Assembly: GCA_050740755.1 (NCBI GenBank)
Contig: JBOIDT010000001.1
Span: 1-58,782, forward strand
Source: Gammaproteobacteria bacterium
GTDB taxonomy: Bacteria > Pseudomonadota > Gammaproteobacteria > JACCXJ01
DNA length: 58,782 bases
Direction of reading: 5' to 3'
Shown here piece after piece: positions 1-2,641 of this stretch. A program made the position numbers and the translations under genes. The first letter of the stretch is position 1; every line of letters begins with the position of its first letter. The notes below the pieces were generated by a model that did no database searches, was not told the origin of the DNA, and was given only the letters and a program-made list of their open reading frames with translations.

Positions 1-1098
1 TCCCAGACTCCTCGGCGCCAGGCCGAGACGGGCCGCCACCGTGCCTAGGCCCGTGGGGCCACCGAGCGGCATGTGCTCCTGGGTCTCGTTGGACCCTTTG
101 TTCATGTAGCGGCTGGATCTCATGTGCCACTCATGACCGCCCGACTGCCAGTCCTGAAGTCCTTTGACGTACCTGACCACGTTCTCGCGGGTAGCCGGGT
201 CCAGACCATGCTCTTCGAACAGCGGATGAAGCTCGGTGAAGAAGGTGTTTTCAAACTGGTACAGCCGGGAGGTCAGTAGGTCGTTGACGAGATTCGCGGC
301 CCGCTGCGGGTCGCAGTGGAGGAACCGCTCGACCACCAGCACGCAGTTGTTGATCTCGCCTTCCTGTTCCGTTTCTCTCTGATAGGAGAAGATGTCGTTG
401 CGCAGATGCACCCCATCGGCGAACGAGTCTTTCAGCACATGCATTGGCCGGGTCGGGGCGATCTCTGGCGGGATCTCTACAAACACGGCGTGCTCGACGA
501 GGTCCGCCGACCAGGGGGCTCCGCCGACCTTGCGGCGCGTCTCGAGGTATTCGATCGGGTTGGGGACCCGATCCTGGCTGATATTGGAGAGCTCCCACAG
601 GGACTCTTTGATGAGGTTCTGGAGGCTCTCGGAGAACCGGAGCCGCCAGTCCAGAGACTTGGTGAACACGGTGCGAGACCACAGATCGGCCAAGCCGCGT
701 TCCACCGCGTTGGTCGGCTCTGGGAGGGTGCTGGTGGGGTCCACCGGCATGAACGCCGGCAATCTATCGAGATACTCCCTCGCACCGGCCTGATCTCGGC
801 TGCGCTTGTAGGTCTCGAGGAAGTGATCGTCGAAGTAGAATACCCAGACATACCAGTCGGTCACGAGGTCGAGCTCTGGGCCCGGCGCATCTGGATGGGT
901 ATACGAGCACAGCAAGGCGTAGTCCATGGCGTCGAACTTGGCCTCGTCCCAGATCTTGGGGCCGGGGGCACCCCCTTCGGAGTCCAGCATCCCCATCTCC
1001 GTGGCCCACGCCTTGGAATGCACGCGCGTCGCTTCTAGGCCGGGGTTCAACCGCGCGGGCCACGGCATGTAAAACTCTGGTAGTTCAAAGGGTTGCAT
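1..1098 (-). CDS. geoA: Geosmin synthase (germacradienol/geosmin synthase), N-terminal domain and start of the linker. The 3' part lies beyond the window edge.
   Basis: Absent from the ORF track because it runs off the left edge. Manual translation from ATG 1098 gives 366 in-frame codons with no stop: [31 protein letters not shown]... It carries the class I motifs FDDHFLE and [15 protein letters not shown]. It also has [22 protein letters not shown], which I recognise from Streptomyces geosmin synthase. SD-like GGAAGGGGAAG lies just upstream. Confidence 0.9.
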
Positions 1099-1144
1099 GG
1101 CCTGCTTCCCCTTCCCTCAGTGTCCGGGCCGAATGACCAGGCTC

Positions 1145-2641
1145 TCAGCGAGCGCGACGGCGTCCCTCAGGAGCGGCAGGCGCAGGAACGGGCGCCGGAT
1201 CGCCTAGGGGGTGGTCATGGAACCGCGCGATCTCGACGTCCTCGAGGATGGCGAGGGCGTCGGGGACGTGGACGGCGGCGGAGTAGTAGGCGCTGACGAG
1301 GTAGTTGATGATCCCTTTTTCGTCGACGCCCATGAACCGGACATTCAGGCTCGGCTGGTACTCGTCGGGAATGCCGGTCTGGTGCAGGCCGACCACGCCC
1401 TGGTTCTCCATACCGATGCGGAGCAGCAGGATGGAGGAGGTGCGGGTGTCGGTGATGGGGATCTTGCTGCAGGGGAAGACGGGAAGGCCGCGCCAAGCCG
1501 GCACCATGCCGCCCACCACGGGGGTGCTCGGGGATACAAGGCCGCGGTGGTTGCACTCCCGGCCGAAGGCGGCGATGGCGCGGGGGTGCGCCAGGAAGAA
1601 CGCCGGTTCCCTCGACACCAGGGAGAGCAGCTCGTCCATGTCGTCGGGTGTGGGCGGCCCGGTGCGAGTCGGGATGCGCTGCTTGAGGTCGGCGTTGTGC
1701 AGCAACCCGAACTCACGGTTGTTGACCAGCTCGTCCTCCTGGCGTTCGCGTAGCGCCTCGACGGTCAGCCGTAGCTGCTGCTCGATCTGGTTCATCGGGT
1801 CGTTGTAGAGATCGGCTACCCGGGTGTGCACCCGCAACGTGGTCTGGGCCACGCTCAGCTCGTACTCGCGGGGCTTGGCCTCGTAGTCGACGAAGGTGGC
1901 CGGCAGCTCAGGCTCGCCCTTGTGTCCAGCGGCCATCGCGATGGCCGCCTCCCCGTAGGGGTTCTGTGCGCGCTGCGAGCTGGCCTTGAACTGGGCGATG
2001 TGAGCCTGAAGCGCCTCGGACTGGGCGACCACCTGCTCAAAGGCCTGCTGTGACAGCACCAGCAGCGTGCCGCTGGTGACGGCCTTGACGGTGAAGTCCC
2101 ACGTGTCCCCCGACTCGACCACCGCCCGGTAGGTGAAGTGGTCGCCGTCGGTCAGCACCCCCAGAACCGTCTCGTCGCCGTACTTCCCGACACCAATCTT
2201 GTTCAGCTTGCCGTGGGCGATGAGGAAAACCTGTTCGGCGGACTGGCCTCGCTCCACGATCACGTCGCCGGGCGCGAACTCCTGCTGGACGAACCGGTCG
2301 GCCAACCCCCTCAGCACCTCGCCGTCGTCGAACCCTCGCAGCAATGCCAGCTCGCGCAGCTCCTGGGGGATGACCCGCACCTCGGCCCCGTTGGTGGTGA
2401 AGGTCACCCGCCCATCGCCCACCGCATAGCTCAGCCGCCGGTTCACCCGGTACGTCCCACCCGACACCTGCACCCACGGCAGCATCTTCAACAACCACCG
2501 CGAGGTGATCTCCTGCATCTGCGGGACGGACTTGGTCGTCGTCGCCAGGTTCCGCGCCGCCGCCGTATCCAAACTCGTGTGCGGCCGCATCTGTGGCTGC
2601 CCAGGCTCACCATCCAAATTCGGCTCAACAGGCTCTGCCAT
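1145..2641 (-). CDS. Family 2B encapsulin shell protein (HK97-fold) with an inserted cyclic-nucleotide-binding domain
   Basis: ORF 1145..2656. The preferred start is ATG 2641, with GAGGGGG 6 nt upstream. The N-terminal segment ([41 protein letters not shown]) and the C-terminal two-thirds ([19 protein letters not shown]...[39 protein letters not shown]...[23 protein letters not shown]...) match my memory of the Synechococcus SrpI Family 2 encapsulin. A cNMP-like beta-barrel of about 120 aa is inserted between them. Confidence 0.85.

What the first reader, a model, noticed from the sequence alone, without database searches (positions are those of the whole stretch)
1..2641. Family 2B (cNMP-domain) encapsulin shell gene directly upstream of geosmin synthase, in a pMMO-carrying gammaproteobacterial context
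Seen in sequence: a 498-aa protein whose N- and C-terminal parts align by eye with Family 2 encapsulin (SrpI-like HK97 fold). It is interrupted by a cNMP-binding-like beta-barrel. It lies 46 nt upstream of, and on the same strand as, a gene with unmistakable geosmin synthase motifs.

Established knowledge: Family 2B encapsulins are often misannotated as Crp/Fnr regulators. They co-occur with terpene cyclases, mainly in actinobacteria, myxobacteria and cyanobacteria. Why a volatile-terpene synthase would be encapsulated remains unclear.

Inference: this host appears to be a pMMO methanotroph-like gammaproteobacterium, an unusual setting for the pair.

The visible geoA N terminus begins directly at the conserved core ([12 protein letters not shown]). 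It therefore has no N-terminal disordered cargo-loading extension, so any targeting region would have to be C-terminal and off-window.
Basis: partly seen in the sequence, partly recalled or inferred. Interest (0 to 1): 0.65.

Follow-up and report, generated by a model that had tools for sequence, protein, structure and literature searches.

The report
Encapsulated geosmin synthase in a methanotroph
The window holds a protein-shell (Family 2B encapsulin) gene followed by the first half of a geosmin synthase gene, a pairing already shown to work in other bacteria. What is new is the host, which looks like an uncultured methane-oxidising soil bacterium of the USC-gamma group.

Summary
ORF 1145..2641(-) encodes a 498-aa Family 2B encapsulin shell protein: NCBIfam NF041163 scores 772.6 bits (cut-off 400), and it matches solved Streptomyces 2B shells at E~1e-198 with no HTH. 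A 46-nt gap separates it from the N-terminal cyclase domain of a geosmin synthase (1..1098(-)), which is cut by the contig end.

The known cargo-loading peptide between the two cyclase domains ([11 protein letters not shown]) lies inside the window, at 28..60(-).

Relatives of 83-93% nt identity carry the whole module as enc1-geoA-enc2, with a second loading peptide at the GeoA C terminus. Some also carry IDI, a 2-MIB-synthase-type cargo and GPP methyltransferase. The two shell genes are a duplication specific to this lineage.

The module sits in a scarred, variable region next to tRNA-Glu, and its flanks differ in every relative. The backbone carries pmoCAB. PmoA is 94% identical to uncultured gammaproteobacterial MAGs and at most 69% to cultured methanotrophs, and the closest genome with the module is the published USC-gamma MAG MGR_bin175.

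Verdict: a new member of a known, experimentally characterised kind in a host lineage where I found no report of it. Interest is moderate.

The parts
1145..2641 (-). enc1: Family 2B encapsulin shell protein, 498 aa plus stop
   Evidence: NF041163 scores 772.6 bits against a cut-off of 400. Pfam finds SrpI-like and cNMP_binding. PDB 9bix, 9bje and 9bhu match at E 3e-198 to 3e-196, and Foldseek descriptions identify these entries as Family 2B shells.
2021..2284 (-). cNMP-binding-fold domain (residues 120-207) inserted in the shell protein
   Evidence: Pfam PF00027 at 1.3e-15. In a BLASTP alignment to E. coli CRP, the cAMP contacts Gly-Glu and Arg-Ser correspond to Thr170-Tyr171 and Trp181-Asp182. 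Trp181 is invariant in 37 homologues.
1223..1981 (-). C-terminal HK97-type (SrpI-like) shell domain, residues 221-473
   Evidence: Pfam PF19307 at 2e-134, covering profile positions 3-254 of 254.
1148..1222 (-). Pro/Ala/Arg-rich C-terminal tail of enc1 (residues 474-498). Present in some enc1 copies, absent from enc2.
   Evidence: Sequence comparison of enc1 and enc2 C termini. Function unknown.
1099..1144 (-). 46-nt spacer between enc1 and geoA with a purine-rich Shine-Dalgarno-like run (GGGAAGGGGAAG)
   Evidence: The relative L169 has the same 46-nt spacing.
1..1098 (-). geoA, N-terminal 366 codons (the germacradienol-forming cyclase domain plus linker), cut by the contig end
   Evidence: NF041168 scores 641 bits over model positions 1-359 of 735. 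The fragment is 89-93% identical to the N-terminal half of full-length 753-758-aa GeoA in L083, L085 and L169. Motifs DDHFLE at 814..831 and NDIFSYQRE at 373..399.
28..60 (-). Cargo-loading peptide 1 ([11 protein letters not shown], GeoA residues 347-357)
   Evidence: It matches the consensus GPTGLGTSAAR reported in PMC8346489, which was tested by mutation in M. xanthus.
2642..3160 (-). About 520 nt upstream of enc1, conserved in relatives. The homology, and so the module, ends at about 3160.
   Evidence: blastn and alignment A1. It holds a weak promoter-like TTGACT-N17-TACAAG at 3067..3095; L081 has TTGACA-N18-TATAAA at the equivalent place.
2740..2772 (-). Decayed relic of a loading peptide ([11 protein letters not shown]) left by a lost upstream terpene-cyclase gene
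   Evidence: Six-frame motif scan. tblastn of relatives' GeoA against the upstream regions gives E 0.001-0.02 in a tiny database. There is a stop just upstream and no start codon, and L085 has a 45-nt deletion here.
3178..6437. Scarred flank: an orphan C-terminal fragment resembling a membrane-fusion protein by eye (3178..3552-; no Pfam match), pyrF (4236..4964-), transposase fragments (5136..6350) and tRNA-Glu(CUC) (6362..6437-)
   Evidence: In the relative L087, pyrF abuts tRNA-Glu and is followed by a cobB-like gene, with no module.
24258..27303 (+). pmoCAB operon on the same contig (host marker)
   Evidence: Pfam AmoC 2.8e-108, AMO 1.8e-119 and Monooxygenase_B 5.3e-158. PmoA is 94% identical to a gammaproteobacterial MAG and 69% to Methylogaea. 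Gene order matches L166.

Best explanation
This is the first part of an encapsulated geosmin-biosynthesis module carried as an accessory element by a USC-gamma-like methanotroph.

**Shown by sequence:**
- enc1 encodes a Family 2B encapsulin protomer: an HK97-type shell fold with an inserted, outward-facing cNMP-fold domain.
- geoA encodes the two-domain germacradienol/geosmin synthase. Its N-terminal Mg-binding motifs and its inter-domain loading peptide are present and intact in the window.

**Inferred from the characterised M. xanthus and Streptomyces systems:**
- Sixty shell protomers form a T=1 shell of about 27 nm. They are probably a mix of enc1 and a second paralogue, enc2, encoded just past the contig end as in every complete relative.
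- GeoA is loaded by its GP-T-GLGT-x-AAR peptides, which bind pockets at the interior three-fold axes.
- Farnesyl diphosphate enters through shell pores and is converted inside to germacradienol and then geosmin.
- Encapsulation stabilises the protease-sensitive enzyme.
- The cNMP-fold domain lacks the canonical cAMP contacts. It probably binds an unknown ligand, or none, and may gate the two-fold pores.

**Origin:** the module was acquired horizontally and sits at different genomic sites in related genomes.
For: **Shell identity:**

**Cargo identity and motifs:**

**Loading peptide in the window:**. Its role is established (literature).

**Complete enc1-geoA-enc2 modules at 83-93% nt identity in relatives:**
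- L083 and L084, L085, L169, and partial in L082; nucleotide identities for L081-L085.
- Each has a C-terminal second loading peptide.
- The full-length L083 GeoA passes the NF041168 cut-off (1220.5 against 1200), and its enc2 passes NF041163 (796.9).
- enc1 and enc2 are sister clades; together they have 199/200 NJ bootstrap support against actinobacterial, cyanobacterial and myxobacterial shells.

**Host:**
- pmoCAB is on the same contig.
- PmoA is 94% identical to gammaproteobacterial MAGs and at most 69% to cultured methanotrophs.
- The backbone is syntenic with L166.
- The closest genome-collection hit for the shell is MGR_bin175, which PMC13333085 lists as a USC-gamma MAG of 63.9% GC. The window is about 65% GC.
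- GC3 of enc1 (0.88) and geoA (0.81) lies within the host-gene range of 0.78-0.92.

**Accessory nature:** homology to relatives stops at about 3160 and all flanks differ. A backbone relative lacks the module.
Against: - Only half of geoA is in the window, and no enc2 is found anywhere in it. Completeness in this genome is therefore unproven.
- In MGR_bin175 the same module is decaying: geoA is 5'-truncated and frameshifted.
- No assembly, loading or product has been measured for this clade.
- The USC-gamma assignment rests on similarity to MAGs and on a literature label. It does not rest on a phylogeny with reference pmoA or 16S sequences.
- The AlphaFold2 monomer model was poor (mean pLDDT 49.7). 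Fold evidence therefore comes from roughly 65-70% sequence identity (read from the alignments) to solved shells, not from modelling.
- No convincing promoter was found.
Confidence: 0.85

Rival explanations
1. The 498-aa protein is a Crp/Fnr-type cyclic-nucleotide-responsive transcription factor that regulates geoA. This is the historical annotation of 'cnb' and EshA genes.
For: It contains a cNMP_binding domain. Many database relatives are named 'CRP-like cAMP-binding protein' or 'Crp/Fnr family transcriptional regulator'.
Against: - No HTH domain is found. CRP, FixK and FtrB equivalogs score 18-21 bits against cut-offs of 266-300.
- The 250 C-terminal residues are an SrpI-like HK97 shell domain.
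- The PDB entries carrying the 'Crp/Fnr' name are cryo-EM structures of encapsulin shells.
- Canonical cAMP-contact residues are replaced.
Confidence: 0.01
2. The module in this genome is a non-functional remnant. It would have a truncated or disrupted geoA, a missing enc2, or both, and be decaying in an IS-scarred island, so no encapsulated geosmin synthesis occurs in this organism.
For: - The region is littered with gene fragments.
- A relic of an older cyclase gene lies just upstream of enc1.
- MGR_bin175 carries a truncated, frameshifted geoA and an interrupted neighbouring oxidase gene.
- The contig ends inside geoA.
Against: - Both reading frames visible in the window are intact over 498 and 366 codons, with catalytic and loading motifs preserved.
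- Five relatives carry complete modules.
- The contig end is more simply an assembly break. Other assemblies of this module also end in or beside it: L081 and L082 and L168, whose contig opens with a partial gene just upstream of the shell gene. The break would be caused by the 83-88% nt-identical enc1/enc2 repeat.
Confidence: 0.1
3. The link to the methanotroph is an assembly chimera. On this view the enc-geoA module belongs to a co-resident actinobacterium or cyanobacterium and was joined to the pmo contig through the repeat-rich 3.2-6.4 kb zone.
For: - The junction zone contains transposase fragments and orphan gene pieces.
- The closest non-clade shells are Pseudonocardiaceae and Nostocales at 72-74%.
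- A syntenic MAG contig (L166) appears, by my coordinate arithmetic, to end near the same zone.
Against: - The module clade is distinct from all actinobacterial, cyanobacterial and myxobacterial shells (199/200).
- An independent bin, MGR_bin175, a published USC-gamma MAG, holds the same module.
- GC and GC3 match the host genes.
- The flanks seen in relatives show no obviously actinobacterial or cyanobacterial gene content in their Pfam lists; none was taxonomically classified.
Confidence: 0.04

Closest known systems
Myxococcus xanthus MxEnc1/MxEnc2-GeoA two-component Family 2B encapsulin (Fazal, Dutcher, Andreas, Giessen; bioRxiv 10.64898/2026.07.21.739788)
   Same: - Family 2B shell protein with an external cNMP-fold domain.
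- Two-domain GeoA as cargo.
- The same loading peptide (GP[NT]GLGTSAAR) between the domains and, in relatives, at the C terminus.
- Two shell genes per operon in relatives.
   Different: - Gene order is enc1-geoA-enc2 here and geoA-enc1-enc2 in M. xanthus.
- The two shell paralogues are 77-83% identical and sister to each other. Two-component operons typically show about 60%.
- The host is a gammaproteobacterial methanotroph rather than a myxobacterium.
- Nothing has been tested experimentally here.
Streptomyces griseus EshA 2-methylisoborneol encapsulin (PDB 9BHU; Nat Commun 2024, PMC11550324) and the S. lydicus two-component 2B shell (PDB 9BIX and 9BJE; Adv Sci 2025, PMC12407261)
   Same: Full-length sequence match at E 3e-198 to 3e-196, with about 65-70% identity read from the printed alignments. 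Same domain order.
   Different: These systems have a different cargo: 2-MIB synthase with an N-terminal loading domain in S. griseus. They are actinobacterial. Here 2-MIB-type cargo appears only in some relatives (L085, L168) and not in the window.
Cyanobacterial odorant operons with 'cnb' genes (geoA-cnb-cnb; cnbA-mtf-mtc-cnbB)
   Same: Terpene synthase flanked by or followed by two cyclic-nucleotide-binding-protein genes, which are Family 2B shells. Nostocales shells are 71-73% identical. The flanking arrangement resembles cnbA...cnbB (PMC12159092 abstract).
   Different: Different phylum. The geoA-cnb-cnb order is recalled from my own knowledge and was not checked here.
Family 2A encapsulin SrpI (Synechococcus elongatus, PDB 6X8M)
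   Same: Same HK97-type shell domain (E 3e-92).
   Different: SrpI has no cNMP-fold insert and carries cysteine desulfurase cargo. The window protein scores 380.5 against a cut-off of 380 on the 2A model, but only as two split stretches, and it fits the 2B model far better.

Membership tests
Family 2B encapsulin shell protein | HK97-type (SrpI-like) shell domain | tested here: met
   PF19307 at 2e-134 over the full profile. Matches solved 2A and 2B shells.
Family 2B encapsulin shell protein | Internal cNMP-binding-fold domain inserted in the shell protein (this distinguishes 2B from 2A; PMC8346489) | tested here: met
   PF00027 at 1.3e-15 over residues 120-207, with shell-model matches on both sides.
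Family 2B encapsulin shell protein | Passes the curated equivalog model | tested here: met
   NF041163 scores 772.6 bits against a cut-off of 400, covering 450 of 450 positions.
Family 2B encapsulin shell protein | No DNA-binding HTH (separates it from true Crp/Fnr regulators) | tested here: met
   No HTH family in Pfam. The CRP equivalog scores 18.2 bits against a cut-off of 266.
Family 2B encapsulin shell protein | Self-assembly into an icosahedral T=1 shell | not testable with these tools
   Needs expression and electron microscopy. The AlphaFold2 monomer model was poor (pLDDT 49.7).
Encapsulated geosmin synthase (GeoA-type cargo, NF041168) | N-terminal class I cyclase domain with DDHFLE and NDxxSxxRE metal-binding motifs | tested here: met
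   DDHFLE at residues 90-95 and NDIFSYQRE at residues 234-242. PF19086 at 1.1e-48.
Encapsulated geosmin synthase (GeoA-type cargo, NF041168) | Second (C-terminal) cyclase domain that converts germacradienol to geosmin | not testable with these tools
   It lies beyond the contig end. It is present in relatives whose N-terminal halves are 89-93% identical to the window fragment.
Encapsulated geosmin synthase (GeoA-type cargo, NF041168) | Curated whole-protein score cut-off (1200 bits) | tested here: inconclusive
   The half-length fragment scores 641 bits over model positions 1-359. The full-length relative L083 scores 1220.5.
Encapsulated geosmin synthase (GeoA-type cargo, NF041168) | Loading peptide GPTGLGTSAAR between the domains | tested here: met
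   [11 protein letters not shown] at residues 347-357, window 28..60(-). Consensus taken.
Encapsulated geosmin synthase (GeoA-type cargo, NF041168) | Second loading peptide at the C terminus | not testable with these tools
   Off the window. Present as G[LA]RGLGT[SA]AAR in L082, L083, L085 and L169, and as GIRGLGTSAAR in L001.
Two-component Family 2B shell | Two distinct shell genes in one operon | tested here: inconclusive
   No second shell gene anywhere in the 58.8-kb window, but the contig ends inside geoA. enc2 follows geoA in L082, L083, L084, L085, L169 and L001.
USC-gamma (JACCXJ01 / 'Ca. Methyloligotrophales') methanotrophs | pmoCAB present, with a 744-bp pmoA | tested here: met
   (25252..25995 is 744 bp). 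The same length is reported for all USC-gamma MAGs.
USC-gamma (JACCXJ01 / 'Ca. Methyloligotrophales') methanotrophs | PmoA, 16S or genome phylogeny places the organism inside the USC-gamma clade | tested here: inconclusive
   No reference USC-gamma pmoA or 16S sequence was available to me. The indirect evidence is:
- PmoA is 94% identical to uncultured gammaproteobacterial MAGs and at most 69% to cultured genera.
- The module's nearest genome is the USC-gamma MAG MGR_bin175.
- GC content fits the high-GC USC-gamma subclade.

The most novel reading that the evidence does not exclude
Uncultured atmospheric-methane oxidisers of the USC-gamma lineage make geosmin inside a protein shell built from two lineage-specific paralogues, and some strains also make 2-methylisoborneol. 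The genes are carried on a module that moves between genomic sites. Part of the earthy odour of desert, cave and polar soils would then come from methanotrophs. The shell pair would load several different cargo enzymes through one shared peptide: GeoA, a 2-MIB-type synthase and possibly an FAD oxidase.
Probability: 0.4. Interest if true: 0.5.

Novelty: new member of a known kind. Interest (0 to 1): 0.35.

Why it matters
**Mechanism.** Nothing here is new. Curated HMMs already name both the shell and the cargo, the loading peptide is known, and the M. xanthus system has been reconstituted.

**Host and evolution.** This is where the value lies.
- USC-gamma bacteria are a globally relevant sink for atmospheric methane and have never been cultured.
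- The USC-gamma genome papers I could search do not mention geosmin, terpenes or encapsulins.
- The geosmin-encapsulin survey does not mention Gammaproteobacteria with 2B shells.

**Possible uses.**
- A volatile, easily assayed product could serve as a marker for these organisms in enrichments.
- The clade offers a natural series for studying how two-component shells arise and how one loading peptide recruits different enzymes. The series runs from intact modules, through modules with added 2-MIB genes, to decaying ones.

Tried and rejected
- **Exact look-up of the window's shell protein:** nothing found. The cluster listing later showed it as P0259 on a 58,782-bp NCBI contig.
- **AlphaFold2 with a 37-sequence alignment:** mean pLDDT 49.7. 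Only the cNMP-fold domain was modelled with confidence. Foldseek still ranked the 2B shells first, but with TM 0.2-0.3, so I do not use it as fold evidence.
- **Rfam scans:** at gathering and at E<=1 thresholds, the only hit in 1..3400 was Sernc350 antisense to enc1, which I read as coding-sequence conservation.
- **Sigma-70 promoter and terminator scan of 1..4300:** no promoters and one terminator-like site, which is below the shuffled expectation.
- **Plasmid collection:** no close relative of the shell protein. The best hits are 63-66% identical on Streptomyces and Nonomuraea replicons, so there is no evidence that the module is plasmid-borne.
- **Supplementary tables of the cave-MAG paper:** not held, so the taxonomy of GCA_050740695.1 (L166) could not be confirmed.
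- **First tree script:** timed out. It was redone with faster distances. My first clade definition wrongly included P0013, which gave 0/100 support.
- **Donor lineage:** unresolved. Pseudonocardiaceae and Nostocales are equally close for both the shell (72-74%) and GeoA (72-74%).
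Full report
**1.

- On the minus strand an ORF runs from ATG 2641 to TGA 1147..1145 and encodes 498 aa. 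A TTG five codons upstream would overlap the purine-rich GAGGGGG run that best serves as the ribosome-binding site, so ATG 2641 is the better start.
- After a 46-nt spacer a second frame opens at 1098 with [12 protein letters not shown]. It stays open for 366 codons to base 1.
- The window is a complete 58,782-bp NCBI contig (member P0259). The geoA frame is therefore cut by the contig end.

**2. The 498-aa protein is a Family 2B encapsulin shell protein**

- Pfam finds an SrpI-like HK97 shell domain (2e-134, residues 221-473) and a cNMP_binding domain (1.3e-15, residues 120-207).
- The NCBIfam family 2B equivalog scores 772.6 bits against a cut-off of 400 and covers the whole model. The CRP, FixK and FtrB regulator models score about 20 bits against cut-offs near 300. 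No HTH domain is found.
- The best solved-structure matches (E 3e-198 to 3e-196) are 9BIX, 9BJE and 9BHU. Despite depositor names such as 'Crp/Fnr family transcriptional regulator', these are cryo-EM structures of the Streptomyces lydicus two-component shell and the S. griseus 2-MIB Family 2B shell.
It is not met.
- An AlphaFold2 model was too poor to add anything.
The cAMP contacts Gly-Glu and Arg-Ser correspond to Thr170-Tyr171 and Trp181-Asp182, and Trp181 is invariant in 37 homologues. This fits the published finding that no cAMP binding has been seen for these domains.

**3. The downstream gene is the N-terminal half of a GeoA-type geosmin synthase**

- It aligns from its second residue to position 1 of the 735-position NCBIfam model 'family 2 encapsulin cargo terpene cyclase', scoring 641 bits over positions 1-359. 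There is indeed no N-terminal extension.
- It carries the DDHFLE and NDIFSYQRE metal-binding motifs.
That is incorrect. Andreas and Giessen 2021 noted a conserved GPTGLGTSAAR between the two cyclase domains, repeated at the C terminus. The July 2026 preprint from the Giessen laboratory showed by deletion and mutation in M. xanthus that these two peptides mediate loading.
- The window's fragment ends ...[21 protein letters not shown], so loading peptide 1 lies at 28..60(-).

**4. Relatives show the whole module**

- The shell protein belongs to a tight metagenomic clade of about 76-96% identity. All named actinobacterial, cyanobacterial and myxobacterial shells are at most 74% identical.
- Contigs sharing 83-93% nucleotide identity with window 1..2774/3160, and L169, carry the following:

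| Locus | Content |
|---|---|
| L083, L084 | enc1 (502 aa) - geoA (754 aa) - enc2 (471 aa) |
| L169 | the same arrangement, with an identical 46-nt enc1-geoA spacer |
| L085 | enc1 - geoA - enc2 - IDI - 2-MIB-synthase-type cargo - fragment - GPP methyltransferase |
| L082 | enc1 - geoA (751 aa), then the start of enc2 overlapping the geoA stop, then the contig end |

- In L085 the 2-MIB-type cargo scores 522 bits on NF041167 and has two N-terminal GLGT peptides. The GPP 2-C-methyltransferase scores 518 bits on NF041943.
- All full-length GeoAs have the second-domain motifs (DDYFP, absent from L169, and NDIFS(Y/F)QKE) and a C-terminal G-x-R-GLGT-S/A-AAR peptide. The L083 GeoA passes the curated cut-off at 1220.5 against 1200.
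- The window's fragment is 89-93% identical to the N-terminal halves of the L083, L085 and L169 GeoAs.
- The window most probably continues into the rest of geoA and an enc2 gene. This is inference, because the window itself contains no second shell gene, 2-MIB synthase, methyltransferase or IDI.

**5. The two shell genes are a lineage-specific duplication**

- Within one operon, enc1 and enc2 are 77% (L083) and 83% (L085) identical. Two-component 2B operons typically show about 60%.
- In a neighbour-joining tree the enc1 and enc2 groups are sisters. Each has 191/200 bootstrap support, and together they have 199/200 against the sampled outgroups.
- Two caveats apply. The outgroups are the best hits to enc1, and gene conversion could mimic a recent duplication.
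- The ~520 nt upstream of enc1 are conserved among relatives. They contain a decayed coding relic...SSRY(M/R)(N/K)-G... in one frame and [24 protein letters not shown] in another. This is the end of a cyclase domain plus a loading peptide, with a stop just upstream, no start codon, and a 45-nt deletion in L085.
- The simplest reading is that a [cyclase-shell] unit was duplicated and the upstream cyclase copy was lost. The tblastn E-values (0.001-0.02) come from a very small database, so this rests mainly on the motif match and its position.

**6. Host and genomic setting**

- pmoCAB lies 21.6 kb from enc1 on the same contig.
- PmoA is 94% identical to proteins of uncultured gammaproteobacterial MAGs. 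The best cultured match is Methylogaea oryzae at 69%.
- The backbone from pntAB through pmoCAB to fpg is syntenic with a MAG contig from GCA_050740695.1.
- The nearest genome-collection relative of the shell gene is 'Gammaproteobacteria bacterium MGR_bin175'. PMC13333085 lists this as a USC-gamma MAG of the high-GC subclade, at 63.9% GC, in GTDB JACCXJ01. The window averages about 65% GC.
- I conclude a USC-gamma-like host with fair confidence, but without a formal phylogeny.
- The module is accessory:
  - Homology with every relative stops near 3160, and all flanks differ.
  - Resolvase genes flank it in L083, L084 and L085.
  - In the window it abuts an orphan C-terminal fragment resembling a membrane-fusion protein by eye (no Pfam match), pyrF, transposase fragments and tRNA-Glu.
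  - A backbone relative (L087, 90% nt identity) has pyrF directly beside tRNA-Glu, followed by a cobB-like gene instead.
- GC3 of enc1 (0.88) and geoA (0.81) lies within the host range. This argues against a recent chimera but does not exclude one.
- No close relative is on a sequenced plasmid.

**7. Mechanism**

- *Shown by sequence:* a 2B shell protomer and a GeoA cargo with intact catalytic motifs and a loading peptide, co-oriented and 46 nt apart.
- *Inferred by homology to reconstituted systems:*
  - a T=1 shell of about 27 nm with external cNMP-fold domains;
  - GeoA tethered at interior three-fold pockets through its two peptides;
  - FPP converted to germacradienol and then geosmin inside the shell;
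  - stabilisation of GeoA against proteolysis;
  - possible pore gating by the cNMP-fold domains with an unknown ligand.

**8. Novelty**

- The kind of system is known and curated, and the nearest analogue has been characterised experimentally.
- I found no paper linking geosmin or encapsulins with methanotrophs. The three USC-gamma genome papers I searched do not mention them. The long-read Antarctic study of order UBA7966 noted terpene clusters only in general terms.
- There is a precedent for an accessory geosmin synthase in a related AMO-bearing gammaproteobacterium, Nitrosococcus oceani AFC132.
- I therefore rate this a new member of a known kind. It has moderate ecological and evolutionary interest.

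Noticed in passing
window 40371..41417 (+): A second, single-domain class I terpene cyclase lies between a GGDEF/EAL sensor gene and a Ser/Thr kinase gene. Pfam Terpene_syn_C_2 scores 1.7e-47, and the motifs are MDDECDE and NDIFSLQKE. It falls below every product-specific NCBIfam cut-off and has no GLGT-type loading peptide, so it is probably not encapsulated and its product is unknown.
   Followed up: partly
window 2642..3160 (-), relic at 2740..2772: The conserved ~520-nt region upstream of enc1 contains a decayed fragment encoding the end of a cyclase domain plus a loading peptide ([18 protein letters not shown]). This suggests an ancestral [cyclase-shell] duplication. A weak promoter-like TTGACT-N17-TACAAG lies at 3067..3095.
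   Followed up: partly
window 2085..2593 (+): Rfam RF02735 (Sernc350, 'Saccharopolyspora antisense sRNA') matches at 172 bits exactly antisense to the enc1 coding sequence. The match most simply reflects conservation of the shell gene, so it is not evidence for an sRNA here. This Rfam family may in effect tag Family 2B encapsulin genes.
   Followed up: partly
window 3178..6437: This is a degenerate zone. It holds an orphan 124-aa fragment resembling the C terminus of a membrane-fusion protein by eye (no Pfam match), about 680 nt of non-coding debris, pyrF, fragments of at least two transposases, and tRNA-Glu(CUC). The relative L087 lacks the 1.4-kb transposase debris and has a cobB-like gene downstream of pyrF.
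   Followed up: yes
L001 (MGR_bin175) 6105..6536 and on to about 6850: Downstream of enc2 and IDI lies a FAD_binding_4 oxidase-like gene that begins with the loading peptide GPMGLGTSAAR. This could be a further cargo class for these shells. In this MAG it is interrupted by a stop codon, and geoA is 5'-truncated and frameshifted.
   Followed up: partly
L085 2263..12121; L168 628..4970: Some relatives combine both earthy odorants in one cluster. L085 has enc1-geoA-enc2-IDI-2-MIB-synthase-type cargo (two N-terminal GLGT peptides)-fragment-GPP 2-C-methyltransferase. L168 has enc2 followed by a terpene synthase (451 aa) and a CMAS-type methyltransferase (283 aa), which by analogy with L085 I read as 2-MIB synthase and GPP methyltransferase; these two were seen only as Pfam families. 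One shell pair may therefore load two different synthases.
   Followed up: partly
window 1148..1222 (-): enc1 has a 25-residue Pro/Ala/Arg-rich C-terminal tail ([25 protein letters not shown]). L083 shares it, L081 and L085 have altered or shortened versions, and all enc2 copies lack it. Its function is unknown.
   Followed up: no
window 19191..22121 (+): A 976-aa protein with only a weak NACHT-like P-loop match (E 1.3e-4) lies upstream of pmoCAB. A 976-aa gene occupies the same position in the syntenic MAG contig L166.
   Followed up: no
window contig end (base 1); L081, L082, L168 contig ends: Several independent assemblies break inside or right beside this module. The break is plausibly caused by the 1.37-kb enc1/enc2 repeat, which is 83-88% nt identical. 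Short-read MAGs may therefore under-report the module.
   Followed up: no
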